A stretch of DNA of 61,222 nucleotides, counting the filler. It is 10 parts of 10 records of this genome, joined end to end, with 100 filler letters (N's around TTAATTAATTAA, not from the genome) between each part and the next. Parts side by side here need not be neighbours in the genome. Positions count along the whole stretch, not along the records: positions 4,085 to 10,607 come from SRR20825010_4995; 9 more parts are not named here. One strand, given 5' to 3'. Both the position numbers and the translations under genes were made by a program. Below are positions 1 to 59,469 of the stretch, one piece after another (the first letter of the stretch is position 1; every line of letters begins with the position of its first letter). The notes below the pieces were generated by a model that worked only from the letters and a program-made list of their open reading frames with translations, searched no databases and had not been told where the DNA came from.

Positions 1-280
1 TATGCGACTAAATCAACAGCCTGCTAGGCGTTGGGAGACTTCAAGGGCGTGCGAAGTTTTCGTGTGATGGATCGGCACGTGGTTTGCGAAAGCGTGGAAA
101 CGTGAAATAGCGACGATGACGCTCCCGGTGTGTGCGGTTGTTGGCTGTTTTGGTCGTGGGGCTACTCGAACCCGCGTCGATGTTCCCCACTTGCTACTTG
201 GATGTTGCCATGCAGTTGTTGTCGCTCATCCAATTGGGGTTCGTGGTTGAGTCCGGTGGTCCTGGTTTGCAGGACGCCCG

Positions 281-1468
281 TTGATGTCGCACATCCATCA
301 GTTCCATACCATTCTGACTGGAGCCCGTCCGGAGCGACGACGCGAAAAGTCGGATGAGTTGATGGCCGTCGAGCAGTTGTCGAAGAATGTTCGTTGGGCG
401 TCGTTCGGCATTTGGTTGTGCGCCGGATTTCTGACTTTGTATGCGTTGTACATCGGTCGAAACCTATTCATGCCAATCCTGGTTGCCGGGTTCGCTTATC
501 TGACACTCCGGCCAGTGGTTCGAGCGATGGGCCGAATCGGAATTCCATCCGGTGTTGCCGCCACCACGATCATGCTGGCGATTGCGACTGTTTTCGGAAC
601 GATCGGCTATGTATTGTCTGGTCCTGCGCAAGACATGCTGCAGCAGGTGCCGAGATCCCTGCCCGAAGTCAAAGAAAAGCTGGGTTTCGTTTTTGACCAT
701 TTAGAAACCGTCAACCAAGCCACGGAAGATATCTCGGACACGGCCGACAAGGAAAATATCACGTCCGAGGAGAAACCGGTTCCGGTGGAAATCAAACAGC
801 CGGCTTGGACAACCACGTCACCGTTGATCGCCGGGACGGGAAACGCGGTTTCGTTTGTCTCCATTGCCGCGGCGTTGCTGTTCTTCTTGATGGCGGCGGG
901 TGATTCGTTGATCGTCTCCGTCGTCAGCTCGTTGCCGTCCTTTTCGTCCAAGCGACGGTTCATCGAAGTCTTGGAAGGTGTTCAAGACGCTCTGAGTAGT
1001 TATCTGGCGTGGGTCACCTGCATCAACGCGTGTCTGGGTGTTTGTATAGGAACTGCGATGTGGTTGCTGGGGATGCCCTCGCCGTTGTTGTGGGGAGTTG
1101 CGGCCATGTTTTTGAACTTCATTCCCATCGTCGGCGCAATGGTCGGAATCGCGATGGTGTTCTTCGTCGCTCTGGTCAGCTTTGAACATGCATCGTTCGC
1201 GTTTGTGGTCGCGGGAACTTACGCGACGCTGACCACATTGGAAGGTCAGTTCATCACACCGACTCTGTTGGGCAAATCGATGAAGCTTTCGTCCGTGCTG
1301 GTGTTCATCTCAATCGTGATTTGGGGATGGATGTGGGGAATGCTGGGTGTGTTCTTGGCCGTCCCGATTTTGATTGCGGTCGTGATGGTGATGGAGAAGT
1401 TGGAGGCCACTTCTTCGATGAATGCCATGTTGAACGGCGCCGTTGGAAAGGCCGCAAATCCTGAGTGA
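281..1468 (+). CDS. AI-2E family (PerM/YhhT-like) transporter
   Basis: 395 aa, multiple TM helices; C-terminal LNFIPIVGA...LEGQFITPTLLGK...WGWMWGMLGVFLAVP typical of AI-2E. True start may be 284 or 362. Confidence 0.85.
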   Translation: MMSHIHQFHTILTGARPERRREKSDELMAVEQLSKNVRWASFGIWLCAGFLTLYALYIGRNLFMPILVAGFAYLTLRPVVRAMGRIGIPSGVAATTIMLAIATVFGTIGYVLSGPAQDMLQQVPRSLPEVKEKLGFVFDHLETVNQATEDISDTADKENITSEEKPVPVEIKQPAWTTTSPLIAGTGNAVSFVSIAAALLFFLMAAGDSLIVSVVSSLPSFSSKRRFIEVLEGVQDALSSYLAWVTCINACLGVCIGTAMWLLGMPSPLLWGVAAMFLNFIPIVGAMVGIAMVFFVALVSFEHASFAFVVAGTYATLTTLEGQFITPTLLGKSMKLSSVLVFISIVIWGWMWGMLGVFLAVPILIAVVMVMEKLEATSSMNAMLNGAVGKAANPE

Positions 1469-1554
1469 CCTTATCGCGTCGCTGTTCTGACTTCCCTTTT
1501 TGCAATCGTATCAATTCAAACTCGTTTCTATTCCTCTTCTAGCAAAGAAGTTCT

Positions 1555-3036
1555 ATGTCCGAAGAATCCAAATGCCCGTTTCAAACTCAGCAATTCGGCC
1601 GGGCGGTCGATGACAATCAGCATTCGCAAACCGCTGGACCGCGTGGGCCCGTCTTGATGCAGGACGTTCACCTGGTCGAGAAAATGGCGCACTTCAATCG
1701 GGAACGGATTCCGGAACGGGTTGTTCACGCAAAGGGCTATGGAGCCTTTGGCACGTTCACGGTCACGAACGACATCACCAAGTACTGCATGGCGGATTTG
1801 TTCTCGGAAGTTGGCAAGAAAACGGAAACCTTTGCCCGTTTCTCGACCGTCGGTGGCGAAAGCGGTTCGGCTGACACGGCCCGTGACCCACGTGGGTTCT
1901 CGCTGAAGTTTTACACCGATCAAGGAGTTTGGGATTTGGTCGGCAACAACACGCCGATCTTTTTTATTCGTGATCCGTTGAAGTTCAGCGATTTCATTCG
2001 AACTCAAAAACGCGAGCCGCAGAATCATTTGCAACCTCATTGGCGTCGTTGGGACTTTTGGGGCGAGGTGCCCGAGGCTCTTCATCAGGTGATGTTCCTT
2101 TACAGCGATCGTGGAACACCAAAGAGTGCACGCTTCATGAATGGCTACGGCAGCCACACGTTCAGCATGTACAACAAAGACGGTGTCCGGCACTGGGTGA
2201 AGTTCCATCTGAAGACCGAACAAGGTTCAGAGAACTTCAGTGCGGACGAAGCGATCAAAATGGCCGGCGAAGCGCCAGATTACTCGACGCGTGATTTGTT
2301 TGAAGCGATTGAGAAGGGCGACTTCCCTCGGTGGCGAATGCACATTCAGGTCATGCCAGAGTCTGACGCTGCAGATTACGAATGGCATCCATTCGATTTG
2401 ACCAAGGTATGGCCGCACGATGACTATCCGTTGATTGAAGTCGGCGTGTTTGAATTGAATCGCAATCCGTCCAACTACTTCCAAGATGTTGAGCAAGCCG
2501 CCTTTGAGCCTGGCAACTTGGTCGAGGGCATCGGGATCTCACCCGATCGCATGTTGCAGAATCGCGTGCTGTCTTATCCCGATGCACACCGGTATCGGTT
2601 GGGTGTGAACTATCACCAGATCCCAGTTAACCAACCGCGCTGTCCTTATGCGACTTATCACCGTGACGGGACGATGCGAGTGGACGGAAACGGCGGTGGG
2701 ACGGTTGATTATGAACCCAACAAGATGAACGGTCCGAAGGAAACCGGGCGAACGATGGAGCCGCCCATGCCAGTGCACGGCGATGGCGATCGCTACGACG
2801 AGTTCGCGTGCGATGACAAGGACTACTACGGCCAGCCTCAGATGTTCTGGAACAAGGTGCTGGACGAAGGAGCTCGCGAACGACTTTGCACTGCGATCTC
2901 CAATTCGATGGCCGACAGCCCGGAGAACATCCGCGAAAAGATGTTGGCCCAGTTCGGCAAAGTGCATCCGGATTTTGAAGCGGGTGTGCGCAGTCGCTTG
3001 GATGCTCCCAAGTCACAACCGATCCCAATCGCGTAA
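1555..3036 (+). CDS. katA: Monofunctional heme catalase (small-subunit type)
   Basis: Active-site motif FNRERIPERVVHAKG and heme-ligand motif RVLSYPDAHRYRLG; 493 aa. Confidence 0.95.
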   Translation: MSEESKCPFQTQQFGRAVDDNQHSQTAGPRGPVLMQDVHLVEKMAHFNRERIPERVVHAKGYGAFGTFTVTNDITKYCMADLFSEVGKKTETFARFSTVGGESGSADTARDPRGFSLKFYTDQGVWDLVGNNTPIFFIRDPLKFSDFIRTQKREPQNHLQPHWRRWDFWGEVPEALHQVMFLYSDRGTPKSARFMNGYGSHTFSMYNKDGVRHWVKFHLKTEQGSENFSADEAIKMAGEAPDYSTRDLFEAIEKGDFPRWRMHIQVMPESDAADYEWHPFDLTKVWPHDDYPLIEVGVFELNRNPSNYFQDVEQAAFEPGNLVEGIGISPDRMLQNRVLSYPDAHRYRLGVNYHQIPVNQPRCPYATYHRDGTMRVDGNGGGTVDYEPNKMNGPKETGRTMEPPMPVHGDGDRYDEFACDDKDYYGQPQMFWNKVLDEGARERLCTAISNSMADSPENIREKMLAQFGKVHPDFEAGVRSRLDAPKSQPIPIA

Positions 3037-3195
3037 TCGGCATATCTGTTGCTTTGTACAGCGATGGTCATCCCTAACTCAGGTGGCCGTCGCTTTTTTT
3101 GTGCGTCTCACTCGGTCAAACGCGGGGGATTGCGCGATCTGGGTGACCAGATATTGCCCCACCTCCCCCCCATTTTTGACTCACCGGAGACCAGT

Positions 3196-3984
3196 ATGTT
3201 CGGATTTCGTTCTGCCCGCTTGCTCGATAATCAATCACTTGATCAGCACGACACTTCTCATTCCGAAAAAGAGCTTGGGAAATCTCGGAAACTGAGAGGA
3301 CGCAGAACGAAAACACGCCGTTCAACTCTGAATCGATTGATCGGCGAGCGTCTCGAGGAGCGTCGTGTTCTGGCTGCCTACGTCGTCGACACTGCTTTGG
3401 ACGTCGTCGCCGAAGATGGCATGGTCAGTCTGCGAGAGGCGATCCAGGCGTCGAACAGCAATATGGCGATCAATGCGGATACCGCAGCCGGTAGTCCTAC
3501 CTCGACCGAAATCGACAGCATCAGCTTTGCCGATGGGCTGAGCACGATTCTTTTAAGCAGCGAACTGGAGATCACCGAATCGCTTCGGATCTCCTTGGGT
3601 GATTCATCCGGCCAAATCGTCAGTGGCGACAATTCATCCCGGATTTTTGCGATCAACGCGTCAGGGGATGATGCGGTGAGCGTCGACCTTTCCGGGTTGA
3701 CGCTGCAAGACGGAGTGGCGGAATCGGGCGGTGCCATTTACGTCGGATCGGGGCAATCTCTCTCGCTCACCAACGTCACCTTGACGGGGAACATTGCGAC
3801 TGGTGATGACGCTGACATGGGCGGCGGTGCGTTGGCCAATGATGGCGGAAACGTGACGATCGATGATTCAACGATCGTAGGTAACATCGCAAACGGTGCT
3901 TCGGGCAGCGGCGGTGGCATCCTGAACCTGGGAACATTGACAGTGTCGGGCGGCGAGATCAGCGACAACACGGCAAACCGTGCG
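3196..3984 (+). CDS. Large secreted/adhesin-like protein, N-terminal part (truncated by contig end)
   Basis: Planctomycete-type leader motif LEERRVLA, a DGMVSLREAI (CSLREA-like) motif and GGAI/GGAL/GGGI beta-helix repeats; GGAG upstream of ATG 3196. Confidence 0.75.
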
Positions 3985-4084
3985 NNNNNNNNNNNNNNNN
4001 NNNNNNNNNNNNNNNNNNNNNNNNNNNNTTAATTAATTAANNNNNNNNNNNNNNNNNNNNNNNNNNNNNNNNNNNNNNNNNNNN
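3985..4084. other. Artificial contig linker (N44-TTAATTAATTAA-N44); identical linkers at 10608-10707, 16379-16478, 24807-24906, 29294-29393, 35166-35265, 39720-39819, 49723-49822, 56601-56700
   Basis: The same N-flanked 12-mer, which has stop codons in all six frames, occurs nine times; ORFs are cut at it and composition often shifts across it. Confidence 0.98.
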
Positions 4085-4500
4085 CACACAATGTAACAGT
4101 ATTCTATAAGAAATGGTAATAACCATATAAAACGTAAATACGGTGGAACAAAACAGTCCGAATGATATACGTGTGCTACTTATTTATAATAGGCGTAATG
4201 TACATCACACAATGTAATAGTATTCTATAAAAAATGTTAGTAAACCTGTAAAAACATAAGTAATACAACCGGGACATTGCACCCACATTACGGGCTTTGC
4301 AATAAATAAGACATATAGTGTACAACGGAACAATACCGTACAAGAAATAAGATTAAACCCACAAAAAAAAAATAAGTACGTTTCACTAATACGGTCAGGA
4401 TATTGTACACACACTACTTTAATTTCCGTAAGCATAATATGTAACACCCAACGTAACAGTATTTTATAAGAAATGTCACTAAACATATAAAAACAGAATT
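4085..4500 (+). repeat. Diverged tandem repeat, about 4 units of 113-126 bp
   Basis: Core CAAYGTAACAGTATTYTATAAGAAAT-like sequence starts at 4089, 4210, 4323 (more diverged) and 4449. Confidence 0.8.
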
Positions 4501-4931
4501 ATGGTGACGTAATGCAACCAACATAGTATATCGACAGCAATTCATTTACAATAAACATAACACATGTCAAGCATGTAGTGTAATAGCATATTACCAGGGG
4601 ATAATAATATGCTTTACAGTATTTTGTTATCCTGTGTAACACTTCGTGTATCATACAGGGTGCATAATATAACATAATACTTTAAACCACTGCTAGTACA
4701 CACTTCGTGTAGGTACGTGTTACGTGTTTTTATCAAGTTAAAACCTGGATGAATATATAGTGTTAATAATATTGTTAAATTGTAAGGGTCACGCGCAGGC
4801 GTAATGAGTTCAGTGTGGACGTGCACCATAACGTATAAATAAAGCACTACGTGTAAGCAATTTTAAATTTTCTAATTTAATTTTTTTTATTTGATGTGAG
4901 TGTACACGAACATATACATGTCAGATAAAAT

Positions 4932-7900
4932 GGAAAGGTGTGATATATGGGACACGGTTTTGTGCACAACTTAAAATAATTGCATTGCTATTTATGTATA
5001 CACCTTGTGGTGCCGGTCAGCTACCCGTGGAATATACGTTCTAAAAACATATGGCACTTTATAGGTTATTATACTACACAATAATAGGCTCGTATTATGC
5101 GGTAGCATACGTCACGCGCACACGAACTACATCCGGAAAGGTGTATATATTATGTGGGGTGTTACATTCTTACGTAACTCAATCGTCGATACTTACCCCC
5201 AGGCATGGCCATGTATAACTTACGAGACACATATATGTTTATATAGCAATCACGAATAGAATATGTTTATACATGTATAGATAGGTTACTTCAGTAAAAT
5301 CTGAGCCTACAGTGCTTTGCTGCATATTTCACGTGCACACCTTTCCATAGCATGGCTATATGTGGTATGGTTAAACAACACAAAACACATGATCTGTACA
5401 TTCGTCGCAGGTATACACCCCGCGTAACATATCACGTTTGTATAGTACACCTTTCCAACGAGTACTGTGTATATATATATGATACACAAAAAAAACAAAA
5501 ACAATGTATACCCTGTTAGTCCTACACGGTTGCTTCTGTTTTTTTTAAAAGACCAATTCGTGTATGCCGGTAACTTAGTATGTACAAGATCACATACTCA
5601 CAACATTATGTTACTGAAATATACAGTACGTGGTACATACGGTAAATACACTTTGCTTAAAAAGTATAGTACGTATCCCTGGGGACACCACACCTTTCCT
5701 TGGAGTATGTTGTATATCGTTACATACAAAAAAACTTAAAAAAAGCAAGATCCGTAAGTAATAGTTGCACCTCGGTGTATCTCTCCGATTAATACATGTT
5801 ATGCAAGATCGCTTACGTTATGATATGCAGCGTACACTTACAGTTTTTAATTTACTTACTACGCTTATTTTATAGGTTAATTAAATCAAAAAACTTGTAT
5901 TCACCCGCGGGAATATACGTGTAAGTATTCATAACGTATACCAGTACGGCTTGAACTACACCGGTAGCGTGTACGTTGCTATTTTGGGATTATACCATAG
6001 CGCCTACCGAGGAGGTTTTAACGGAAAGGTACACCTGACATGTATGATATTTTTCAAGGTGTGCATACAGTACGGGAGACGTAGGTCATACGTAACTCTC
6101 ATCGTGTAGTATAACGTTAACCTGATCCTTACTGATGTAATGCACGTACACTCACACCCCTTATTTTATGTTATCCTGCATCCCGTGTACATTACACTCC
6201 GGGAAAAGCGGGGTTTGTAATATACGGTAATACAACTGGTAAGGATTACACAACCACTACGTACATGGTAGGACATACACCTTTCCTGCGTAATCCGGGA
6301 AGCCTATAGTACACCAAATCACAAACAAAAAGTTTAATTGTGATAAGGTTGTTGTACATGGCACGCGGCAGCCGTACACTCCGGAAGTACACCCGCTTAC
6401 ACATGACTTGTATACGCACTTGTATGACATCGCGTAATATCCCGGGTATAATTCATGGCTTTCTACATACGAGTGTATACGAGTATGTTACAGCACTACA
6501 CTCTACGCCGGAAAGGTGTAATACATTACTGCATGGCATTAACATGTACGGAAGAATTTACGCACAACAGTATACACCGACATATATCCGGTGGCATGTA
6601 TGATACTACGCCTCGTGTGCGTGTGTAGCGTACGCGTAAACAAGTATTACAGATTATGTATTGTATCCTTTGTAAGACCGCAGTATAGTACATACCGTAC
6701 TGAAAACACCTTTCCAGTACATATACGTGTGCAGCGTGTAAAACAAAAACACAAAAAAAGGAGGATGTTAACTACAGGCGTATATTATACATACACCGGT
6801 AACGTTCCGGTATGTATGTTGTATACATTGTCAGGCAGTACGTCAGTTACGCGTACTACACATTAATACTATACATATTAATATTTCTGTGTAGTTAAAA
6901 GTTCTTAATACGCGTGGTGTGTTACGCTTACGCAGGAAAGGTGTATTTTACACACGTTAAAACGTCAGTGCACACCCATTATGTAACGTATACGTCGTAA
7001 TTAACCTCATCCATTTCCGGTGTAACGTTGCACACGTACTACGGGGTATGATTATTTTCGGAAAGGCATTCATACCATCTATACATGACCACGTATCAGT
7101 TTTGTATAGGACCGGTAGGTTAATATCCCACGTAGAACGCACACCTTTCCAGTAAGGCTAGCACAGGAGGATAGCAAATATTCACCAAAAAAAAACAGCA
7201 AACGTTATACGATTGTCGCAACTGTATACGTATTATATACCACGTCCAGTATATACGTAGCATTACAATAACCGGAGGTAGTGTACTCACATTTTTTATT
7301 GGTGATGTACTTCCCTAGTGTGTGTGTATTACATGGAAAGGTGTACATGTTATGAACAGTAACATTACCGGAAGACCTCCTCCGTGGGTAAGAACACGTC
7401 TGCGCGTTAATATAAGGTTATTCCCGCACCATCCTGTACGGTGTCAGTAAAATTTACAGCATTACAATAACACCTTTCCTAGAAAATCGTGAGCGGTATG
7501 CTATTACAAAAATAGAGCAGAACAAATTACACAAGTGGGTAGTATATATATATATGCGATTACTTACGCAATAGTAGTGTACTACGTCTTACGTTGTGGA
7601 CATACCTAACCGCAGTACGTGTAAGGTTGTACTTGCTATGTATAAATTAAATATAGTCATATCATTATTTATTTTTTTGTCGATAGACAACTACGTAGGG
7701 ATTAGTAGTTTACTCAGGAAAGGTGTATTATGCGATGTGATTTCTACATAACGTGTACCGGGGAAGGACTACATTATTTTGATATCGCCTGCCGTAAGGG
7801 TATACGTGTACTTATTCATAGTATACTGTCTTACACGAAACAACGGTACATGTTTGATTGCGTAGAATATGTTACCGTTTTTTGTGTAGGTCCTGCAACA

Positions 7901-9915
7901 CTATCTGGGGAAAGGTGTTTACCACATATACAATACATAGCACGGTGTAAACGGTTACTAATCACACCTTTCCGGATTAAACATCGTTCGTTAATGCGTA
8001 CTTCAACAACGAAAATAATTAAAAAAAAATAGGTAACACCAATATGTATCATCTCTGGCGTTAACGGGTCCCGTAAGGGTACCTCGGGAGTTACGTTAGA
8101 CTGCGTTGTAACATATTGTATAGTCGTGCAGTAAACATATACACTATGTAAGTCTGCCGTAATGGATCTTCCGCGGTATGTACGGGGTGTATTACATATA
8201 CGGATATTATTACATGTTAGCCATAAGGCACATGTATGTATTCTTACGTGTATTAAAAAACACCTTTCCAACTAGACTAACATATATGTAAAACAGTATA
8301 AAAACACACCCCAAAATGTATACGCACAGACATATGTATGTTGCGGTATTCCCGGTATTGTGGGTACGTAATTACATCCCATATAAACGTGGTTTACATA
8401 TAGTCCCGGTAATACATATACACGTATACGTCCTACGGTAAGTGGGGTTGTTCATTTTCCTATAAAGGTTTGCTTCATCGTTTTTGAATGTTTACAGTTT
8501 GATATGTCTTACGGCCATTGTTGGAAAGGTGTAATCCCCGGGCATATTATTTCCAATATGAAAAAGTGTGTTACAGTGAACACATACTTTTAAGTACTAT
8601 TGTTTAACATAATCCCGACAGCTATACGATGTATGTCTAGCGCAGCGTGTAGTTCTTACGCAGAAAGTAATTTACGCACAATAATATGTACATGTAATAC
8701 GTACGGTTAGGGCTTAAATAAAAATAAAATTAATCAAACATATTCAGAAGGTTTCTCTCGGTTGCCTAGTGTGCGGTTACAGTAGGTAATGCATAATACG
8801 TATACGTATAGTACACCTTTCCAGATATATACTTGTAAGTAATAAACTATTAGTGAATAATACATCAAAATAGAACCTTACCCCCGTAATGTGGTAGCCT
8901 AGCGCACCCAGAAAAAACGATGTCCCCCGTAAGGTATACGTATATTACGTTTATATCATGTCCGGGGGAGGGTTAATACATAATGTATAATAAAAAGTAA
9001 TTATTATGTTGAACGTGGGTACATTGTACGTATAACAGAAGTGTTTCATTACCGTAATAAACCTATGTTATTTTGCCGATAGGCACATGTACGTATACAT
9101 TGTAGTCATAGTAGGAAAGGTGTGCCGGATATGATCCTGGTGATACCTGTAAGCAACTATGTATGCATATAAGGTGGGTGTACTTTTCCCTGTGGTAATA
9201 AATACTCATCCGGAAAGGTGTGTTTTACAATGTGTCTACAGACCTATATAGTAAACCTATACCCGTAATGTCTACTACTTTTTTTGTTGGGAGCGTAATC
9301 ACAACGGCCTTACTTTTAGGAAAGGTGTTGCCTTACAGAGGTTTAATAAAACTCGGGGTGAACGTGTAAACCTAATATATAGTGTACACTATAAAAGTGT
9401 TCACGTGAAACAATGTTAAACTTCTTTTTTTTATGGTGGGAACAGCACCGTATGTAACATGCAGCTACAGGAAAGGTGTGTATGTAGATAGAGTCCTGCA
9501 CCGCCTATACACTACGGGTTAGGTATGTATCACTGTCCATTACATTTGTGTATGGGTGTTACTGTTACGTAGCTGTACATTAACAGCCATAGGAAAGGTG
9601 TATACCATATATTGTAGGCGTGCGTCTATTGCATGTTTCATTCCATAAAAGTACCCCCCGTGTAATAGTAGGCACTCGTATAGTTACAGAATACAGGTGT
9701 TATATTTTATAAATACCCATATAACGTTACTTAATATCATATTTGGTGTTGCTGTTTTACTTGTGTGTAGTACCATGTAATACCTGACACACCTTTCCAG
9801 TGTTGCTTTTACTATTATGGCCTACACAAAAACAAAAGCAACAACGCCAACAAAATTTAATGTAGATCTCTAGGTATGTATAACACCTCGGGTAGTTTGT
9901 ATAACACACCTTTCC
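4932..9915. repeat. Dispersed array of the 10-mer GGAAAGGTGT (reverse complement ACACCTTTCC), 25 exact copies
   Basis: Plus copies start at 4932, 5135, 6510, 6935, 7335, 7717, 7909, 8523, 9114, 9212, 9319, 9470, 9592. Minus copies start at 5337, 5447, 5690, 6277, 6706, 7141, 7470, 7964, 8260, 8813, 9789, 9906. Partial matches at 6023 and 7060. Counted by eye. Confidence 0.93.
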
Positions 9916-10434
9916 AGTAAAGACATATTAGTCGTGGTATAAAACAACCAAACAAAACCAGGTAACAGTTATAACAAATACACCCGTGCCAAGACACAAC
10001 AGTATGCATGCACACAAATGAAAAAATTTAAAACCGTGTACACTAGGTGGGCTGTCTACGCGTTTTTAGTTATGTTTTGTGTATTCTCGTCAAGCGTAGG
10101 TTCTCGTGCTGTGTTACGTATCACGTATAAGTTATATGCATCACTACTAATACACGCCCGTTAGAGCTATGTCCTAGCGATACGTATCCCACACGTACAC
10201 GGAGTGTGTGGTATACACATTTGTCAATTTACTTTATGTTACGTACTACACTGAACATGACGTACTACAATAGGTAATGCGTCCAGGTAAAGCACATTAA
10301 TAACACACCATAATACATGTGGTATGTGTTTACATTGTTTACGAGTATTGCATGCAATGTGCATAACTATGTCACACATACAACCGTGGGATTGTGGTAT
10401 TGCAAAATAGTCATGTTTTTATCCCATTACTAAT

Positions 10435-10607
10435 ATTTATTATACTATACTGTTACGTTGTGTGGTATACACTACGTTTATTGTAAGCGAAGTACTATGC
10501 ACATATACATATACAATAGCCATGTAATAGTGCAACGCACTTACGTTTTTTACAGATTTAATAATACTTCTTACATTATACTGTTACGTTGTGTGTTATA
10601 CACTACG
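10435..10607 (-). repeat. Two repeat units (period 131 bp) homologous to the left-end repeat, in inverted orientation
   Basis: TACTGTTACGTTGTGTG at 10448-10464 and 10579-10595, each followed by (G/T)TATACACTACG; matches the reverse complement of CACACAATGTAACAGTA (4085-4101) at 16/17. Confidence 0.8.
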
Positions 10608-11843: not shown

Positions 11844-13598
11844 ATGACACAGGACGGCAAGACGCGGCTTGGGGCCGGGCTGCATTCGGTATTCGTCAGA
11901 TGTGCGGCGATCATGGCTATCACCACAATTGTGGTGGCGGGCGTGATCTCGGTTCAGGCGACGTCGCTGATCAAGGGGCTGGCGGTCAAGGGCGTCGTCG
12001 ACATGGCGGCCAAGACGGTGGAGCGCAACGCCGAGGCCCTGGCCAAGCCGATCAAGTTCAAGGTCATGCCCAAGATTGAGGAAATGACTTCGGCCGCATT
12101 GACTGCGGCCGGAGCGGATGGAAGCGCCATAGCGGTTCTGGATGCAGAAGGCACGTTGCTGGCGACTGCCGGTGACGATCCGGCACTTGTGGATGAGGTG
12201 GCCGCGCTGGCCCGTACCGTACTTGCTGATGGGACGCGGCAGGTGTCGAAACAGGGGTTGATCGTCGCGGAGCCCGTATTGGCCGGGCCAGAAGGGCCAG
12301 TCATTGGTGCGCTTGTCATGGCCTGGAACGCCGATGCGGCGCTGGCGGCAGTTGGTGCCGACAGATTGCGCATTCTGCTGACGGCGGCGGCGGTTTTTGT
12401 CGTGCTGATGGCGGGCACGCTGCTTGTGTTGCAGCGCAGTCTGGGACGCCCTCTGCGTCAAGTGACCGAAGCCATCAACCGGATTTCACGCGGTGACTAT
12501 GAGACCGAAATCGGCATGGCCGGACGGCGGGATGAGTTCGGAGAGATCGTCACGCATATGGGCTCTTTGATTGGTGCGCTGAGTGACGCGCGTACCGCGG
12601 AAGAGGCGCGCGCCGAGAACATGGAACGGCAGGTCGAAATGGTTCACCATCTGGGCGCAGCACTGGACATGCTGGCCGATGGCGTGCTCAACCGTGAAAT
12701 CCAGGCTGAATTCCCCGAAGAATACGCAGCCCTTCGCACCAACTACAATCGCGCGGTCACCAGTCTTCGGCAGGTCATTGACGAGGTGTCTGCCAGTGCG
12801 GGCAGTTTGCTGGACAATGCCAATCAGATCTCCTCCGCTTCGGATGATCTGGCACGACGGACGGAAACTCAGGCCGCCACGCTGGAGCAATCGGCCGCGG
12901 CGCTGGAAGAATTGTTGAGCAGCGTCACCGCCGCAGCAGAAAACGCGCAGAACGCGGATGAACAGGTGCGCCAGACCCGCGATATTGCCGAGCGCAACGG
13001 GCAAGTGATGAAATCCGCCATCGAGGCGATGGGCGCGATCGAAAAATCCTCGGACAAGATCAGTGAAATCACCAATGTGATCGACGACATCGCATTCCAG
13101 ACCAATCTGCTGGCGCTCAATGCGGGGGTTGAGGCGGCCCGGGCCGGGGAATCCGGCAAGGGATTTGCCGTGGTGGCCACAGAGGTGCGGGGCCTGGCGC
13201 AACGCAGTGCTGCGGCCGCCCAACAGATCAAGGACCTGATCGCCGGCGCCGGAGAGCAGGTGACCAGTGGAGTCAGGTTGGTCGAAGAGGCCGGCGGCGC
13301 ATTGGACGATGTACTGGCCCGTGTAGCAGATGTCTCAAAGATGGTCAGCGGCATCGCCAACAGCGCGGGTGAGCAGGCGCAGGGCTTGCAGGAAATCAAT
13401 GTCGGCGTGTCGAACCTTGACCGGGTCACGCAACAAAACGCCGCCATGGTCGAAGAGGCCACAGCTTCGGCGCACATGATGCGTGGGGATGCCAACGCCC
13501 TGAGCGAAACTGTGGGCCGGTTCACCACGCATGGCGAAGGCCCTTCCCACCGGTCCGCCAGAACACCTGCCGCCCGAGCAGTGGAACAAGCGGCCTGA
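11844..13598 (+). CDS. Methyl-accepting chemotaxis protein
   Basis: Two TM helices, HAMP region, signalling hairpin IAFQTNLLALNAGVEAARAGESGKGFAVVATEVRGLAQRS. Confidence 0.95.
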   Translation: MTQDGKTRLGAGLHSVFVRCAAIMAITTIVVAGVISVQATSLIKGLAVKGVVDMAAKTVERNAEALAKPIKFKVMPKIEEMTSAALTAAGADGSAIAVLDAEGTLLATAGDDPALVDEVAALARTVLADGTRQVSKQGLIVAEPVLAGPEGPVIGALVMAWNADAALAAVGADRLRILLTAAAVFVVLMAGTLLVLQRSLGRPLRQVTEAINRISRGDYETEIGMAGRRDEFGEIVTHMGSLIGALSDARTAEEARAENMERQVEMVHHLGAALDMLADGVLNREIQAEFPEEYAALRTNYNRAVTSLRQVIDEVSASAGSLLDNANQISSASDDLARRTETQAATLEQSAAALEELLSSVTAAAENAQNADEQVRQTRDIAERNGQVMKSAIEAMGAIEKSSDKISEITNVIDDIAFQTNLLALNAGVEAARAGESGKGFAVVATEVRGLAQRSAAAAQQIKDLIAGAGEQVTSGVRLVEEAGGALDDVLARVADVSKMVSGIANSAGEQAQGLQEINVGVSNLDRVTQQNAAMVEEATASAHMMRGDANALSETVGRFTTHGEGPSHRSARTPAARAVEQAA

Positions 13599-13840
13599 AC
13601 GCACCCGCCAACTGCCCTTGAGCAAATGCCGCCGCAGCCCTGCGGTGGCGGTCATAAAGCCGGCGGGTGCAGCCCGATTTCCGTTCGACTGCACAAATCG
13701 CGGGCATTTTTCGTCAGATGTCTCTGAGTTGCGGCATTGCTCGTCCGAATGCGCATCGAATTTGGCAACGGGTTTACATCCACGCCCGCGAAGGGTTCTG
13801 TGGAAGTAGGAAAACGCAACTCGGTACAGACGGGAAAACA

Positions 13841-16378
13841 ATGGCGATTACGGCGAGCATTCGGCACCTCACGCACTACAAGTATGACCGTCCGGTCACG
13901 CTGTCTCCGCAGATCATCCGACTTCGTCCTGCACCTCATAGCCGAACGCGGGTTATCAGCCATTCGCTCAAGGTGTCGCCAGAGGGCCATTTCGTAAATC
14001 ACCAGCAGGACATCTATGGCAACTGGCTGGCCCGTTTCGTCTTTCCCGAGCCAGTGACGGAATTCCGGATCGAGGTCGATCTGGTTGCCGACATGACCGT
14101 CTACAACCCGTTCGATTTTTTCGTGGACGATGTGGCGCGCGAATGGCCCTTTTCCTACCCCGAGGACATTGCCGCCGACCTTGCAGTCTATCGCAAGGCC
14201 GTGCCGATCACACCCAAGGTCAAGGCCTGGGTGGAAAAGGTGCCGCGCAAGAAGCAGGTCACCATCGACTTTCTGGTTGAGTTGAACCGCCAGCTGGAGG
14301 AGCAGATCGACTATCTGATCCGCATGGAGCCAGGCGTACAGACACCCGAAGAAACGCTGACCAAGGGCTCTGGCTCTTGCCGTGACACCAGCTGGCTTTT
14401 GATCAACATCTTGCGCCATCTGGGTTTTGCCACGCGCTTTGTCTCGGGTTATCTGATTCAGTTGAAACCGGATTTGGAAGCGCTTGATGGCCCGTCGGGC
14501 ACCGATCATGACTTTACCGATCTGCATGCGTGGTGTGAGGTTTATCTGCCGGGCGCAGGCTGGGTCGGCCTGGACCCGACCAGCGGGTTGCTGACCGGCG
14601 AAAGCCACATCCCTCTGGCCGCGACCCCGCATTTCAGCAATGCCGCGCCAATTGTCGGCGGCTTTGAAGGGCATGAAGACACCAAAACCGATTTCGACTT
14701 TGCGATGGAGGTGACGCGCATTGCTGAACACCCACGCATCACCAAGCCGTTTTCGGAAGAAAGCTGGGACGCGCTGGATGCATTGGGCCAGAAGGTCGAC
14801 GAGGAGATCGAAGCGGTCGACATGCGCCTGACCATGGGCGGTGAACCAACTTTTGTGTCGATCGATGATTTCGAAAGCCCCGAGTGGAATACCGATGCTG
14901 TCGGTCCGCAAAAACGGGCGCTGGCTGATCAACTGATCCGGCGCCTGCATGACAAATTCGCGCCTGGGGGTTTCCTGCATTACGGGCAGGGTAAGTGGTA
15001 TCCGGGCGAAACGCTGCCCCGCTGGACGTTTTCGCTATACTGGCGGCATGACGGCAAACCAATCTGGCGCAACAAGGATCTGGTGGCCCGCGAAACGGAC
15101 AAATCTGCGACCGAGGTTGACGCCGAACGGTTCATGACAGGCTTTGCCAAATCGCTGGAAATTGGCACGGAATATGTCCAACCGGCCTATGAGGACCCCG
15201 CTGTCTGGATACTCAAAGAGGCAGAGCTGCCTGAAAACGTGACACCCGAAGATTCACGTCTGAAGGACCCCGAGGCACGCCAAAGGATTGCGCGCGTGTT
15301 TGAGCGCGGGCTGGACAAGCCCGCCGGTTTTGTTCTGCCGATCCAACGCTGGCAATCGCGTGCCTTTGGCCGCGGCTGGAGGTCGGAACGCTGGCGCGCG
15401 CGGCGCGGCCATCTGTTCCTGATCCCCGGCGACAGCCCGGTGGGCTTTCGTCTGCCGTTGGGGACGCTGCCCTATGTCAGCCCGTCCAATTTTCCTTACG
15501 TCTACCCGGCGGATCCCAATGTGCCGGTCGACGATTTACCTGATTTCCTTGAAATGGACGACAAACGGCAGGCCGTGTTCGAGGAACTGCGCCGCATCGC
15601 CCAAGAAGAGCGTGACACGCTGCCCGAAACCACACCGGGCCGCGAACAGCCGGTGTCGGCCCTGCGCGGCGATGAGCCGTCAGAGGCGCTGCGCGAGCAG
15701 GCCGTCACGCCAGACGGGGCCACGGTGCGGACCGCCATTGCGGTGGAACCGCGCGACGGAAAACTGTGCCTATTTATGCCGCCGGTCGAACAACTGGAGG
15801 ACTATCTTGAACTGATTGCAGCGGCAGAGGCCACGGCCGATGCGCTGGACCTGCCGCTGCACATCGAGGGCTATACCCCGCCACATGATTCTCGTCTGAA
15901 CGTCATCAAGGTCGCGCCAGACCCCGGCGTGATCGAGGTCAACGTACATCCGGCGTCCAGCTGGAAAGATTGCGTCGACATCACCAGCACGGTCTATGAT
16001 GAGGCTCGCCAGTGTCGCTTGGGTGCGGACAAGTTCATGATCGACGGCAAGCATACCGGCACTGGCGGCGGCAACCACGTTGTTGTGGGCGGCGCGACGC
16101 CGATGGATTCGCCCTTCCTGCGACGACCGGATTTGCTGCGCTCCTTGATCTTGTACATGCAGCGACACCCCTCGTTGTCCTATCTGTTCTCGGGCACCTT
16201 TATCGGACCGACTAGTCAGGCCCCCCGGATCGACGAGGCGCGGCACGACACGTTGTATGAACTTGAAATCGCCATGTCGCAGATCCCCAACCCGGATGAA
16301 GGGAGTGCACCGCCGCCATGGCTGGTGGATCGCCTGCTTCGCAACATCCTGATCGACGTGACCGGCAACACCCACCGG
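13841..16378 (+). CDS. Transglutaminase-like protein fused to a DUF2126-type putative amidoligase region (3' truncated)
   Basis: N-terminal IRHLTHYKYDRPV; triad motifs GSCRD, DLHAW, GLDPT; later TMGGEPTFVS and GTGGGNHVVVGG. ATG 13841 is the likely start. Confidence 0.85.
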
Positions 16379-16658
16379 NNNNNNNNNNNNNNNNNNNNNN
16401 NNNNNNNNNNNNNNNNNNNNNNTTAATTAATTAANNNNNNNNNNNNNNNNNNNNNNNNNNNNNNNNNNNNNNNNNNNNCGCGCGCACCGATTGGGCTGTG
16501 CCCGCGCTGATCGCGCTGGCCGCGCCTGACGTGACAACCCATGCGACCGGCTTTGTCGAGGCCGCCAGCGACACCCCTTTTGACGACGTCCAAATCGTCC
16601 CGCCAGTGGATCGCGAAGATCCCTGTGCCTCCCTGACATCCAAATAAGGAACCTTCTT

Positions 16659-41506: not shown

Positions 41507-42064
41507 ATGATCGCACCCGGCGCGCCGGGTGCGATCCATTCGAGGCAGAAAACCTTGCAGAAACTGATGCAAACAGGCGCATGGCTGCACCGCAGGGCCG
41601 AGAATATCGCCGCTTTGATGCTAGCGGTCATGTTCTGCGCCTTCATTGTCCAAGTGGCGTTCCGCTACCTTCTCAACCTGCCGGTCGGCGGCGCGTCCGA
41701 GTTGACGATCCTGATGTGGCTTTGGCTCGTGCTCTGGGGCGCGGCTTTCGTGCTGCGGGAGTCGGACGAAATCCGTTTTGATTTCGTGCTGACGCTCGCC
41801 AGTCGCCCGGTCCGGCGCGTGATGTCGCTGCTGGCGGCGGCGGCGCTGCTGTTTCTCTACGGCTATTCCCTGCCGGCCGTGTGGGACTACGTGACCTTCA
41901 TGAAGGTCCAGGAAACGTCCTATCTCGATATTCGCTACGACTATGTCTATTCGATCTACATCATTTTCGCCGTTGCCACGCTTGCGCGTTATGCCTGGCT
42001 GTTCTGGAGCGCCTTGACCAACCGGTATGTCGAGCATGCCGAGCGCGGGGAGCATGAGGAATGA
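41507..42064 (+). CDS. dctQ: TRAP small permease DctQ
   Basis: Four TM helices, QVAFRY...ELT; start uncertain (41507 or 41567). Confidence 0.85.
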   Translation: MIAPGAPGAIHSRQKTLQKLMQTGAWLHRRAENIAALMLAVMFCAFIVQVAFRYLLNLPVGGASELTILMWLWLVLWGAAFVLRESDEIRFDFVLTLASRPVRRVMSLLAAAALLFLYGYSLPAVWDYVTFMKVQETSYLDIRYDYVYSIYIIFAVATLARYAWLFWSALTNRYVEHAERGEHEE

Positions 42065-59350: not shown

Positions 59351-59469
59351 CGGGGCGGGCCTTCTGCTGACATGGGACACATTCCCGGTTAGACGCAGAA
59401 GGCGGGCTTGAACCGACAAAACCCGACACAGTTTGTATCACAGCGACCGTAAGTGCATCGGACCGGCGG

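What the first reader, a model, noticed from the sequence alone, without database searches (positions are those of the whole stretch)
4932..9915. Gene-free 5-kb field of 25 exact copies of one 10-mer (GGAAAGGTGT) in unique sequence: candidate undescribed protein-binding platform
Seen: 13 plus-strand and 12 minus-strand exact copies, plus two partial ones (6023, 7060). The flanks differ from copy to copy, so conservation stops at the 10-mer and these are not copies of a longer repeat. At roughly 35% GC, about 0.01 copies would be expected by chance in this contig, and I saw none in the other nine contigs. Inference: exact, sharply bounded, orientation-independent sites in non-coding DNA suggest selection for binding by one sequence-specific protein. 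Candidates are a regional centromere or partition (parS-like) array, an iteron-type origin of a large virus or plasmid, or a packaging/recombination signal field. The motif differs from the Neisseria DUS, Pasteurellaceae USS, E. coli Chi and DnaA box consensus sequences; I do not recognise it.
Basis: partly seen in the sequence, partly recalled or inferred. Interest (0 to 1): 0.85.

Follow-up and report, generated by a model that had tools for sequence, protein, structure and literature searches.

The report
Promoter-tagged mini-unit array on gene-free DNA
A 6.5-kb gene-free stray contig in a bacterial bin carries 27 tiny tagged units built like the guide-RNA genes of trypanosome-type mitochondria, and sister molecules with the same tag occur in ocean metagenomes.

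Summary
In detail: 25 exact GGAAAGGTGT (13+/12-) lie in 4932-9915, against 0.18 expected. The field is a separate contig (4085-10607, about 37% GC) among nine ordinary bacterial contigs.

It is not one locus. 28 metagenome contigs, 24 from one ocean sample, carry the word at the same density on both strands with no other shared sequence. They yielded no Pfam, Rfam or tRNA hit.

The word is half of an oriented two-part element. On the other strand it reads RY-ACACCTTTCC, then about 27-30 unconstrained bases, then a diverse A/C-rich, G/T-poor block of about 19 nt.

This matches Trypanosoma brucei guide-RNA genes, which have a conserved repeat, a start 30-32 nt downstream and an AC-rich anchor. 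The molecule layout matches the guide-RNA molecules of Trypanoplasma borreli: a unique core, motif-tagged loci on both strands, inverted terminal tandem repeats and uneven copy number.

Best reading (about 0.45): an array of mini transcription units for short guide-like RNAs on a kinetoplast-type molecule of an uncultured marine protist.

Against: no CSB3, no purine-rich guiding region, no RNA data, owner unknown.

The centromere, iteron and packaging readings are not supported.

The parts
4085..10607 (.). The whole low-GC contig: one molecule, or most of one, of the gene-free multipartite population. It is a binning passenger among bacterial contigs.
   Evidence: N spacers; GC; single 6486-6487-nt records in 3 runs at depth 278/74/299; neighbouring contigs encode ordinary bacterial proteins.
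4085..4560 (+). Left terminal tandem repeats. Units of about 113-126 bp start at 4085, 4206, 4319 and 4445. Units 1, 2 and 4 begin with a CACRCAAYRYWAC-type block.
   Evidence: D1; inverted arms I1-I4 against the right end; read depth 2-2.6 times the body; block shared with L022 and L050.
10205..10607 (-). Right terminal tandem repeats, inverted relative to the left end. Units lie at 10416 and 10547, and a 14-mer recurs at 10205, 10459 and 10590.
   Evidence: D3, D12, I1-I3; 75-77% complementary to the left end; depth 2.7-4.1 times the body.
4887..9960 (.). Field of 27 oriented two-part units (25 exact and 2 variant words) on both strands in otherwise unique DNA with purine-pyrimidine alternation.
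4887..4941 (-). Unit read on the - strand: word 4932-4941, A/C block (as T/G on +) about 4887-4902.
   Evidence: A/C fraction 0.81.
5090..5144 (-). Unit: word 5135-5144, block about 5090-5105.
   Evidence: 0.69.
5337..5391 (+). Unit read on the + strand: ACACCTTTCC 5337-5346, A/C block about 5376-5391.
   Evidence: 0.88.
5447..5501 (+). Unit: word 5447-5456, A/C block 5486-5501.
   Evidence: 1.00.
5690..5744 (+). Unit: word 5690-5699, A/C block 5729-5744.
   Evidence: 0.88.
5978..6032 (-). Variant unit: GGAAAGGTAC 6023-6032 (positions 9-10 changed), block 5978-5993.
   Evidence: 0.75.
6277..6331 (+). Unit: word 6277-6286, A/C block 6316-6331.
   Evidence: 0.94.
6465..6519 (-). Unit: word 6510-6519. 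No clear block in the fixed window.
   Evidence: 0.44.
6706..6760 (+). Unit: word 6706-6715, A/C block 6745-6760.
   Evidence: 0.94.
6890..6944 (-). Unit: word 6935-6944, weak block.
   Evidence: 0.62.
7015..7069 (-). Variant unit: GGAAAGGCAT 7060-7069 (core position 8 changed). Possibly decayed.
   Evidence: 0.69.
7141..7195 (+). Unit: word 7141-7150, A/C block 7180-7195.
   Evidence: 0.88.
7290..7344 (-). Unit: word 7335-7344, block 7290-7305.
   Evidence: 0.75.
7470..7524 (+). Unit: word 7470-7479, block 7509-7524.
   Evidence: 0.75.
7672..7726 (-). Unit: word 7717-7726, block 7672-7687.
   Evidence: 0.75.
7864..7918 (-). Unit: word 7909-7918, weak block. It stands back to back with the 7964 unit, the words starting 55 bp apart.
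   Evidence: 0.56.
7964..8018 (+). Unit: word 7964-7973, block 8003-8018.
   Evidence: 0.81.
8260..8314 (+). Unit: word 8260-8269, block 8299-8314.
   Evidence: 0.94.
8478..8532 (-). Unit: word 8523-8532, block 8478-8493.
   Evidence: 0.81.
8813..8867 (+). Unit: word 8813-8822, weak block.
   Evidence: 0.62.
9069..9123 (-). Unit: word 9114-9123, weak block.
   Evidence: 0.62.
9167..9221 (-). Unit: word 9212-9221, block 9167-9182.
   Evidence: 0.69.
9274..9328 (-). Unit: word 9319-9328, block 9274-9289.
   Evidence: 0.75.
9425..9479 (-). Unit: word 9470-9479, block 9425-9440.
   Evidence: 0.94.
9547..9601 (-). Unit: word 9592-9601, block 9547-9562.
   Evidence: 0.81.
9789..9843 (+). Unit: word 9789-9798, block 9828-9843.
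   Evidence: 0.94.
9906..9960 (+). Unit: word 9906-9915, block 9945-9960.
   Evidence: 1.00.

Best explanation
The contig does not belong to the bacterium it was binned with. It is one member of a population of small (about 6-12 kb), high-copy, gene-free DNA molecules found in marine metagenomes. Each molecule has a unique core bounded by inverted tandem terminal repeats.

Each GGAAAGGTGT is the conserved half of an oriented element of about 55 bp. Read on the opposite strand, the element is RY-ACACCTTTCC, then about 27-30 unconstrained bases, then a diverse A/C-rich, G/T-poor block (median 19 nt).

I infer the following. The 10-mer is a promoter-proximal recognition element, probably for the transcription machinery of an organelle. 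Transcription starts about 27-30 nt downstream, at the first A of the block. The block is the 5' Watson-Crick 'anchor' of a short antisense, guide-like RNA aimed at U/G-rich (edited-type) mitochondrial transcripts. The contig would then be an array of about 27 independent mini-genes, the equivalent of a kinetoplastid guide-RNA minicircle enlarged to 25-45 units. Its owner would be an uncultured marine euglenozoan, kinetoplastid-like or close to that lineage.

Shown: the anatomy, the statistics, the molecule layout, the lack of detectable genes, and the wide occurrence.
Inferred: transcription, its direction, the RNA product and its target, and the owner.
For: 1. Two-part oriented element.
- In 442 distinct instances the T/G tract sits at -45 to -30 relative to the word.
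- 389 of 615 T/G tracts are followed by the core within 10-45 nt, against 5 of 615 for A/C tracts on the same strand. 358 of 531 cores have such a tract.
- In the ACACC reading (371 instances) A+C rises from 50-52% at d=23-25 to 77-87% at d=30-42, and is back at baseline by d=55-56.
- 425 of 521 units have an A/C run. Its start peaks at d=24-31 and its median length is 19 nt. The sequences are diverse.
- In the window, 19 of 27 units have at least 75% A+C in the fixed 16-nt window.

2. Same ruler as a known system. In T. brucei the gRNA start lies 30-32 nt downstream of the conserved 18-bp repeat, and the 5' anchor is 'AC-rich and GT-poor' (PMC9202587, passages and section 11). Perkinsela gRNA candidates have a 5' A/C-rich tract (PMC4669381, passages). 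Its edited mRNAs are T/G-rich (supplementary file 3, part 1), that is, the complement of such blocks.

3. Same molecule layout as T. borreli gRNA molecules (PMC9679448, passages). Those have a unique inner region flanked by tandem repeats in inverse orientation, gRNA loci on both strands each with a short conserved motif (RYAGGCTTT) 20-40 bp upstream, a fivefold coverage range between molecules, and a repertoire mostly not shared between strains. Here:
- the terminal repeats are inverted;
- the ends are 2-4 times deeper than the body;
- the depth ratio to a 9,424-nt sister contig changes from 2.7 to 1.1-1.2 between runs;
- there is no homology between molecules beyond the element.

4. Spacing rules fit promoters. 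Units back to back in the ACACC reading can have words starting 26 bp apart. Same-strand neighbours need about 80-100 bp or more, and facing units about 140 bp or more.

5. No other content was found.
- No Pfam hit: 0 of 73 frames in the window, and 0 of the 150 longest of 674 frames in relatives.
- No Rfam family in 33 related loci covering 112 kb.
- No tRNA in the contig.

6. A distant relative at 25% GC (L022) keeps the core AGGAAAGGTA, the tract and the same dinucleotide bias.
Against: 1. The kinetoplastid hallmark CSB3 12-mer is not in the contig at 2 or fewer mismatches. The terminal repeats are cut by the assembly, however.

2. Beyond the block (d greater than 55) the composition is the same as everywhere else (A 30, C 19, G 19, T 31%). 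T. brucei guiding regions have A 40%, G 25% and C falling to 2%. If these are guides, they are short (about 25 nt) or of another kind.

3. A purine/pyrimidine-pattern search for guide-to-anchor overlaps gave no excess over antisense or reversed controls: 3190 matches against 3047 and 3226. The test is weak.

4. No RNA run holds the sequence, so transcription and its direction are untested. The GGAAAGG reading, with an upstream T-rich element and a start at the R after the word, fits the spacing data about as well.

5. The owner is unidentified. No cryptogene, maxicircle or rRNA is linked, so complementarity to a target cannot be tested.

6. The strong GA/TC and AG/CT depletion and AC/GT excess of all unique DNA is not something I found reported for kinetoplast DNA, and it is unexplained.

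7. The unit density of about one per 210 bp is far above the figure I saw for T. borreli, an average of 23 high-confidence loci per central region.
Confidence: 0.45

Rival explanations
1. Same kind of array, but read in the reader's orientation. GGAAAGGTGT would be a phage-type or organellar RNA-polymerase promoter that includes the start site (the R right after the word). The T/G tract 30-45 nt upstream would be an upstream promoter element. The transcripts would be the unique sequences downstream of the word.
For: - R follows the word in 86% and Y follows next in 77% of 442 instances. This goes beyond the dinucleotide expectation and resembles the RYAYA start quoted for T. brucei gRNAs.
- The core is nearly invariant, like single-subunit polymerase promoters. 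That comparison is from recall.
- The spacing rules fit equally well: the upstream 55 bp never overlap a neighbour.
Against: - Nothing downstream of the word is distinctive. There is no strand asymmetry, no folding excess (z 0.01) and no conserved end signal.
- This reading leaves the diversity, G/T-poverty and fixed distance of the tract without a role.
- The known parallels put an A/C-rich block downstream of the conserved element, not a T/G block upstream.
Confidence: 0.15
2. Protein-binding platform without transcription. The word, with or without the tract, would be bound by one sequence-specific protein that compacts, segregates, replicates or packages these small molecules.
For: - The 8-mer is extremely exact across samples and across a 25%-GC relative.
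- The mean spacing is about 210 bp.
- In the ocean-sample scaffolds the shared terminal repeats are built of GGAAA/TTTCC units, as if the same protein also bound the ends.
- The unique DNA between sites shows no sign of sequence-specific function.
Against: - The site is asymmetric and has a partner at a fixed distance whose sequence is diverse but compositionally constrained (A/C only). A pure binding site does not explain this.
- Orientation is random and spacing is broad, 26-929 bp. This is unlike iterons or parS clusters.
- No par, rep or packaging gene lies on any of the molecules seen.
- The window's own terminal repeats lack the GGAAA units.
Confidence: 0.2
3. Recombination or DNA-processing signals. 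The element would be a two-part signal (conserved word, fixed spacer, A-rich block) cut or joined by a recombinase, as in heptamer-spacer-nonamer signals or ciliate chromosome-breakage and elimination signals. The molecules would be substrates or products of programmed rearrangement.
For: - The grammar is two-part with a fixed spacer.
- The word is exact.
- Many unrelated unique segments lie between the signals.
Against: - No paired or inverted arrangement is preferred: 119 convergent, 111 divergent and 202 same-strand neighbour pairs, with the convergent class inflated by my search pattern.
- No target-site duplications or empty sites were seen.
- The only joint in the three runs is a 24-letter chance overlap at the word.
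- The A/C block is diverse, not a consensus nonamer.
Confidence: 0.05
4. Selfish or artefactual DNA. This would be a satellite-like junk amplification, a laboratory or amplification artefact, or tiny gene pieces (modules) of a diplonemid-type fragmented mitochondrial genome, with the T/G tracts being sense-strand coding snippets.
For: - The purine-pyrimidine-alternating composition of all unique DNA is odd.
- T/G tracts resemble edited mRNA text.
- Diplonemid relatives have multipartite chromosomes of 2-12 kbp and modules as short as 4 nt (PMC7049700, passages).
- A marine sister lineage of the kinetoplastids has mitochondrial contigs up to 7.2 kb at 36% GC with similarity only near the ends (PMC6792441, passages).
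Against: - Against an artefact: the same grammar with different unique sequence appears in records under five further sample prefixes besides the three runs, and the contig assembles identically in three runs.
- Against a satellite: the inter-word segments are unrelated.
- Against modules: no frame matches any mitochondrial protein family. Very short modules would escape that test.
Confidence: 0.1

Closest known systems
Guide-RNA-bearing kinetoplast molecules of Trypanoplasma borreli ('ScaI-flanked contigs'; PMC9679448, passages read)
   Same: - A unique inner region is flanked by imperfect tandem repeats in inverse orientation.
- Putative small-RNA loci lie on both strands with no placement pattern.
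- Each locus has a short conserved motif at a set distance upstream. Their motif is RYAGGCTTT; ours reads RY-ACACCTTTCC, a loose resemblance (RYA...CTTT).
- Copy number between molecules is unequal.
- The repertoire is mostly not shared between strains.
   Different: - Their assembled contigs average about 70 kb including long repeat arrays, and hold on average 23 high-confidence loci. Here the molecules are 6-12 kb with about 25-45 units.
- Their repeats carry a CSB3-like 12-mer; none was found here.
- Their loci were found by complementarity to edited mRNAs, which cannot be done here.
Trypanosoma brucei minicircle gRNA cassettes (PMC9202587, passages and section 11 read)
   Same: A conserved flanking repeat is followed by a start site 30-32 nt downstream and then a 5' anchor that is AC-rich and GT-poor. 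Here the A/C block starts 24-31 nt after the word and is G/T-poor for about 19 nt.
   Different: - The circles are 1 kb with 3-5 cassettes (recalled), and each cassette is bounded by an inverted pair of 18-bp repeats. Here orientation is random and the word is 10 nt.
- The T. brucei guiding region is A/G-rich and C-poor and ends in a T-rich stretch. Here the region after the block is not distinctive.
- The ATATA start is not seen here; runs begin ACA, AAA or AAC.
Multipartite mitochondrial chromosomes of diplonemids and of the marine SAG D1 lineage (PMC7049700, PMC6792441; passages read)
   Same: There are many small molecules (2-12 kbp), mostly non-coding and in high copy. In SAG D1 the contigs are 36% GC, reach 7.2 kb, and are similar only near their ends. 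These are marine organisms.
   Different: Those molecules carry recognisable pieces of mitochondrial protein genes; none was detected here. No dispersed 10-mer is described in the passages I read. Namystynia has other motifs flanking its cassettes.
Nematode piRNA (21U-RNA) clusters with an upstream motif per mini-gene (recalled, not looked up)
   Same: Both show thousands of tiny independent transcription units on both strands. Each unit has a short conserved upstream motif at a fixed distance from the start of a unique small RNA, at hundreds of base pairs per unit.
   Different: - Those are nuclear chromosomal clusters interspersed with genes, and their motif differs.
- Here the units sit on separate small high-copy molecules with terminal repeats, and the transcribed part begins with an A/C-only block.
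   Same: Exact short words, highly over-represented, on both strands (DUS/USS).
   Different: - DUS/USS are spread through coding genomes of competent bacteria. Here the bacterial contigs and the nearest genome are at background.
- parS sites are palindromic and few.
- Iterons are direct, regularly spaced and lie next to a rep gene.
None of this holds here.

Membership tests
Kinetoplastid guide-RNA-bearing kDNA molecules (minicircle class in the wide sense) | A heterogeneous population of small, high-copy, protein-gene-free molecules with a shared conserved or terminal region and a unique variable region | tested here: met
   inverted terminal repeats shared within a sample, unique cores, depth 74-299 with deeper ends, no Pfam hit.
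Kinetoplastid guide-RNA-bearing kDNA molecules (minicircle class in the wide sense) | CSB3 12-mer (universal minicircle sequence) in the conserved region | tested here: not met
   no match with 2 or fewer mismatches inside 4085-10607. At 3 mismatches the whole window gives 59 matches against 42.5 expected. The terminal repeats are truncated by the assembly, so absence from the full molecule is not shown.
Kinetoplastid guide-RNA-bearing kDNA molecules (minicircle class in the wide sense) | A conserved element at a fixed distance (about 30 nt) upstream of the small-RNA start, followed by an AC-rich, GT-poor anchor | tested here: met
   compared with PMC9202587 and PMC4669381. That the block is a start and anchor is inferred from composition and distance only.
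Kinetoplastid guide-RNA-bearing kDNA molecules (minicircle class in the wide sense) | A guiding region of about 30 nt rich in A and G and poor in C | tested here: not met
   only a weak A excess to d of about 55, and baseline composition beyond. C stays at 13-21% from d=44 onward with no decline.
Kinetoplastid guide-RNA-bearing kDNA molecules (minicircle class in the wide sense) | Complementarity (with G:U pairs) of the small RNAs to edited mitochondrial mRNAs of the same organism | not testable with these tools
The overlap test between units was uninformative.
Kinetoplastid guide-RNA-bearing kDNA molecules (minicircle class in the wide sense) | Small transcripts with non-templated 3' oligo(U) tails; a euglenozoan owner | not testable with these tools
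   No RNA holder is listed. The records behind the loci are not held for whole-record searches.
Diplonemid-type fragmented mitochondrial chromosomes | Each chromosome carries one or more pieces (modules) of mitochondrial protein or rRNA genes | tested here: inconclusive
   0 of 73 and 0 of 150 frames hit Pfam, and no Rfam rRNA was found. Modules shorter than about 45 codons, or heavily edited ones, would be missed.
parS / centromere-like partition array | Palindromic 14-16-bp sites clustered near parAB or an origin | tested here: not met
   The word is not palindromic, each copy has a one-sided partner block, no gene lies on the molecule, and copies fill the whole molecule.
Iteron-type replication origin | Direct repeats of one orientation at regular short spacing, next to a rep gene and an AT-rich unwinding element | tested here: not met
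   13+/12- orientation, spacing of 26-929 bp, no rep gene.
DNA uptake sequences (DUS/USS) | The word is spread genome-wide, including coding DNA, in the owner bacterium | tested here: not met
   There are 0 copies in the other nine contigs. The nearest genome has 7 copies against 9 for the control word.
Decayed satellite / MITE family | Inter-word segments are homologous to each other | tested here: not met
   pairwise identity of spacers and flanks equals column-shuffled controls (0.284 vs 0.284; 0.272 vs 0.272).: only 4 short hits between the window contig and 39 related loci.

The most novel reading that the evidence does not exclude
These molecules are the guide-RNA (or guide-like) genome of an abundant, uncultured marine euglenozoan lineage and represent a new system. 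It would comprise thousands of promoter-tagged units, each making a short all-Watson-Crick A/C-rich antisense RNA. The RNA would not be a classical U-insertion guide. Instead it would direct another step that still lacks a known guide, such as the joining of gene pieces or the appendage and substitution editing seen in diplonemid-type mitochondria. The authors of PMC7049700 say that the mechanism of that joining 'remains unknown'. In a still bolder version, the molecules are autonomous gene-free replicons of a kind not yet described.
Probability: 0.15. Interest if true: 0.9.

Novelty: new variant of a known kind. Interest (0 to 1): 0.68.

Why it matters
If the reading is right, a bacterial bin has by accident delivered a nearly complete guide-RNA chromosome of an uncultured marine protist. 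It would come with an exact 10-nt handle that fishes out its sister molecules from any metagenome: 28 contigs came from one pattern scan.

A 2026 preprint states that only two nuclear genomes of free-living kinetoplastids were public (passages). I saw guide-RNA molecules described only for a handful of species in the papers read.

An architecture with 25-45 units per 6-12-kb molecule, a 10-nt invariant tag and a 30-nt ruler shared with T. brucei would show two things. First, the repeat-to-start distance is ancient. Second, the origin and turnover of guide repertoires would become directly testable in environmental data.

It is also a practical warning. Such molecules are high-copy, gene-free and easily mis-binned into bacterial genomes.

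Tried and rejected
- Coding under other genetic codes. Long frames appear only when TAA and TAG are read through (tables 6, 14, 27). This follows from the twofold depletion of the GA dinucleotide, which makes TGA rare, so it is not evidence of a code.
- Shine-Dalgarno plus short ORFs after the word. This was considered on reading the sequence. Many copies have no ATG, or a stop comes within 3-10 codons, so it was dropped.
- Fixed hairpin around the word. The best pair z was 3.9 among about 21,000 position pairs, consistent with chance.
- Folded RNA products. Mean z was -0.21 and 0.01 for 120 sampled 70-nt segments in each orientation.
- Sub-families of the element. BLAST similarity spans -55 to +25, but anchored identity equals shuffled controls. 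The span is only the two conserved blocks being bridged.
- A second T-rich tract as a terminator downstream of each unit. Tracts are tied to the next core, not to the previous one.
- Guide-cascade overlap test. No excess was seen, but the test has low power.
- Searches that found no relative:
  - phage and plasmid collections by blastn;
  - viral contigs with three patterns (the 6 loci are one-strand tandem repeats);
  - species genomes of bacteria and archaea (91 stretches, all chance pairs or one-strand coding repeats, none with the dinucleotide signature).
- Rfam at a permissive threshold gave one chance-level match.
- No RNA holder was listed for the contig.
- The whole genome of the window is not held, and the records behind the metagenome loci are not held.
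- Earlier findings of this scan: nothing on this genome or sequence.
- Literature searches for the word:
  - The 10-mer or its complement occurs in 398 papers. I saw the listing of 20; none concerns a genomic motif, judged by title and abstract start.
  - The 8-mer combined with 'minicircle', or with 'mitochondrial/promoter/protist', gave 3 and 5 unrelated papers.
- Perkinsela supplements. The word is absent from the five files that could be read, and flanks there are only 15 nt. File 4 could not be read.
- bioRxiv supplements are closed, and PMC9679448 Table S1 (T. borreli gRNA loci) was not opened. It could bear on the motif comparison.

Full report
**1. The observation**

One search finds exactly 25 exact copies of GGAAAGGTGT, 13 on the + strand and 12 on the - strand. 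All lie between 4932 and 9915. Dinucleotide-preserving shuffles of the window give a mean of 0.18 copies and a maximum of 2.

The window is ten contigs joined by N/TTAATTAATTAA spacers. The field lies in its own contig, 4085-10607 (6,523 bp). Its GC is 0.33-0.40, against 0.47-0.69 elsewhere. The other contigs encode ordinary bacterial proteins: catalase, a chemotaxis receptor, DctM, FecCD, a ketosynthase and a Rieske oxygenase. The nearest genome held has the word at background, 7 copies in 5.3 Mb against 9 for the reversed control word. The low-GC contig is therefore a passenger in a bacterial bin.

The contig is a real molecule. In three runs of one study, single records of 6,486-6,487 nt cover 4122-10607 without a differing letter, at depths 278, 74 and 299. 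These runs may include the source sample and are not independent support.

**2. No detectable genes**

- There is no tRNA.
- There is no Rfam match near threshold.
- 0 of 73 stop-to-stop frames of 45 aa or more reach a Pfam cut-off.
- The longest frame is 146 aa. It is reached by 4% of dinucleotide shuffles under table 11 and by 22% under table 4. It has no relative among about 5.8 billion protein clusters, near lengths only.
- Frames become long only when TAA and TAG are read through. This is a by-product of a twofold depletion of the GA dinucleotide, which makes TGA rare.

**3. A class of molecules, not a locus**

A scan of metagenome contigs for a convergent pair of the word returned 69 loci.

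- 39 loci, from 28 contigs, carry 5-22 copies each on both strands at 0.35-0.41 GC. The 28 contigs are 24 scaffolds of 1.2-12 kb from one ocean sample and 4 contigs under three other sample prefixes.
- One further contig (L022, 25% GC) is a distant relative. It carries the core AGGAAAGGTA, the same upstream tract and the same dinucleotide bias.
- The remaining 29 loci are chance pairs.

In 114 kb of non-redundant related DNA the word occurs 446 times, about one per 250 bp. Including near-variants the figure is one per 210 bp.

The window contig shares nothing with these relatives beyond 33-69 nt around the word. The ocean-sample scaffolds share only their terminal tandem repeats with each other.

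In the three runs, many other records match the contig only around the word. Among them is a 9,424-nt contig whose depth relative to ours changes from 1:2.7 to about 1:1.15 between runs, and the ends of our contig are 2-4 times deeper than its body. Sister molecules with independent copy numbers and shared ends therefore coexist.

None of the related DNA shows a gene. 0 of the 150 longest of 674 frames hit Pfam, and no Rfam family was found in 33 loci covering 112 kb.

No relative turned up in the phage or plasmid collections, in viral contigs, or in the species genomes of bacteria and archaea.

**4. Anatomy of the unit**

I aligned 442 distinct instances on the word.

- A T/G-rich, A- and C-poor tract lies at -45 to -30.
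- G is depleted at -7 to -1, and C stands at -2 in 46%.
- R follows the word at +1 in 86%, and Y at +2 in 77%.

The invariant part is the 8-mer GGAAAGGT. There are 519 intact cores against 13 single variants in positions 1-8, while positions 9-10 vary (GC 38, AT 20, GG 8, GA 6).

The tract is tied to the word. 389 of 615 T/G tracts are followed by the core within 10-45 nt, against 5 of 615 for the complementary tract type.

Read on the other strand, the element is RY-ACACCTTTCC, then unconstrained bases, then an A/C block.

- A+C rises from 50-52% at 23-25 nt after the word to 77-87% at 30-42 nt, and is back at baseline by 55-56 nt (371 instances).
- 425 of 521 units have a clear A/C run. Its start peaks at 24-31 nt, its median length is 19 nt (IQR 15-25), and the sequences are diverse, for example ACAACAAAAACATAACACATCAA.
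- In the window, 19 of 27 units have at least 75% A+C in the fixed 16-nt window.

Everything else is unique.

- Anchored pairwise identity of spacers and flanks equals column-shuffled controls.
- There is no fixed base-pairing.
- There is no folding excess.
- There is no strand asymmetry.

Neighbour spacing (432 pairs) behaves as follows.

- Units that stand back to back in the ACACC reading can have words starting 26 bp apart.
- Same-strand neighbours are rarely closer than 80-100 bp.
- Facing units are rarely closer than 140 bp.
- Orientation is close to random: 119, 111 and 202 pairs, with the first class inflated by my search pattern.

**5. Molecule ends**

The contig starts with four units of about 120 bp (4085-4560). 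It ends with inverted copies of the same unit (10205-10607; 75-77% complementary).

The unit begins with a 13-nt block of the type CACRCAAYRYWAC. This block also opens the terminal repeats of L022 and occurs at the very end of one ocean scaffold. In total there are 7 hits in 118.6 kb, 6 of them terminal, against 1 hit for a reversed control.

The terminal repeats of the ocean scaffolds are different. They are built of GGAAA/TTTCC units.

**6. What it most likely is**

The closest described architecture is that of the guide-RNA molecules of Trypanoplasma borreli (PMC9679448, passages). Those molecules have:

- a unique inner region flanked by tandem repeats in inverse orientation;
- putative gRNA loci on both strands without pattern;
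- a short motif (RYAGGCTTT) 20-40 bp upstream of each locus;
- a fivefold coverage range between molecules;
- a repertoire mostly not shared between strains.

The unit anatomy parallels Trypanosoma brucei cassettes (PMC9202587, passages and section 11). [quoted passage not shown]

In Perkinsela, the only feature shared by gRNA candidates is a 5' A/C-rich tract (PMC4669381). Its edited mRNAs are T/G-rich text (supplementary file 3, part 1), the complement of blocks like ours.

From this I infer that:

- the 10-mer is a promoter-proximal element;
- transcription starts about 27-30 nt downstream;
- the A/C block is the Watson-Crick 5' part of a short guide-like antisense RNA;
- the owner is an uncultured marine euglenozoan.

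Transcription, its direction, the product, the target and the owner are all inferred, not shown.

**7. What speaks against membership**

- The CSB3 12-mer is absent from the assembled part.
- The region after the block is not A/G-rich and C-poor as T. brucei guiding regions are.
- A crude test for guide-to-anchor overlaps showed no excess.
- No RNA data exist.
- No target transcripts are at hand.
- All unique DNA has an unexplained purine-pyrimidine-alternating make-up, uniform at every distance from the word: GA/TC 0.50, AG/CT 0.64, AC/GT 1.56, TA 1.31, CG 1.23.

I therefore file it as working like a guide-RNA gene array, and as a probable new variant of that kind, not as a proven member.

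**8. Rivals**

The same array, with the start at the R after the word. Probability 0.15.
- **Protein-binding platform without transcription.** Favoured by the exactness of the core and by the GGAAA-built ends of the ocean scaffolds. It does not explain the diverse A/C-only partner block. Probability 0.2.
- **Two-part recombination signal.** No junctions and no pairing preference were seen. Probability 0.05.
- **Junk, artefact or tiny gene modules.** Recurrence across samples argues against an artefact, against a satellite, and the Pfam results against all but very short modules. Probability 0.1.

**9. Novelty and limits**

I found no description of the word in this role. One search found 398 papers holding the string; I saw the listing of 20, none of which concerns a genomic motif. 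Searches gave only unrelated papers. The kinetoplastid and diplonemid papers I read describe other motifs.

My relatives were found with an exact-word pattern at one spacing. Lineages with other words are therefore missed, and the habitat picture is incomplete. Supplementary tables of PMC9679448 were not opened, and one Perkinsela supplementary file was unreadable. Either could bear on the motif comparison.

Noticed in passing
window 4085-10607 and loci L017-L078 (related set): All unique DNA of these molecules has a strong and uniform dinucleotide bias: GA/TC 0.50, AG/CT 0.64, AC/GT 1.56, TA 1.31, CG 1.23. This amounts to purine-pyrimidine alternation. It is independent of strand and of distance from the word, and I found no cause for it.
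   Followed up: partly
L059 1-260; L033 2825-2965; L049 3130-3270; L035 3572-3650 and 3990-4064: The shared terminal repeats of the ocean-sample scaffolds are made of GGAAA/TTTCC palindrome-like units (CCGGAAATTTCCCGG type). They reuse half of the dispersed word. The window contig's ends are built differently.
   Followed up: partly
window 4085-4097, 10452-10464 (-), 10583-10595 (-); L022 31-43 and 212-224; L050 13-25 (-): A 13-nt block (CACRCAAYRYWAC) opens the terminal repeat unit in three otherwise unrelated lineages of these molecules. There are 7 hits in 118.6 kb, 6 of them terminal, against 1 for a reversed control. It is a candidate origin or end-processing element.
   Followed up: partly
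L022 (Ga0193963_1003092, 452-4680): This is a 25%-GC relative with 14 copies of the 7-mer GGAAAGG, mostly as AGGAAAGGTA. It has the same upstream tract and the same dinucleotide bias, and it shows that only the 8-mer core is conserved across lineages.
   Followed up: partly
window 1-3984 and 10708-61222: The other nine contigs are ordinary bacterial DNA of about 60% GC: catalase 1555-3036, chemotaxis receptor 11844-13598, transglutaminase/DUF2126 13667-16426, ketosynthase 27417-29255, DctM 42061-43356, FecCD 46033-47997 and a Rieske oxygenase 58175-59419. They share 23% of sampled words with the nearest held genome.
   Followed up: partly
window 3049-3984: The contig end just left of the finding carries a glycine/alanine-rich repetitive open frame (327 aa, running into the spacer). 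It looks like a beta-helical surface or adhesin repeat. It was not examined.
   Followed up: no
L010 (IMGVR_UViG_GVMAG-M-3300023174-208_000001, 6112-9533): A giant-virus bin contig has 7 copies of the same 10-mer on one strand at an exact 52-bp period. This is a tandem repeat unrelated to the finding.
   Followed up: no
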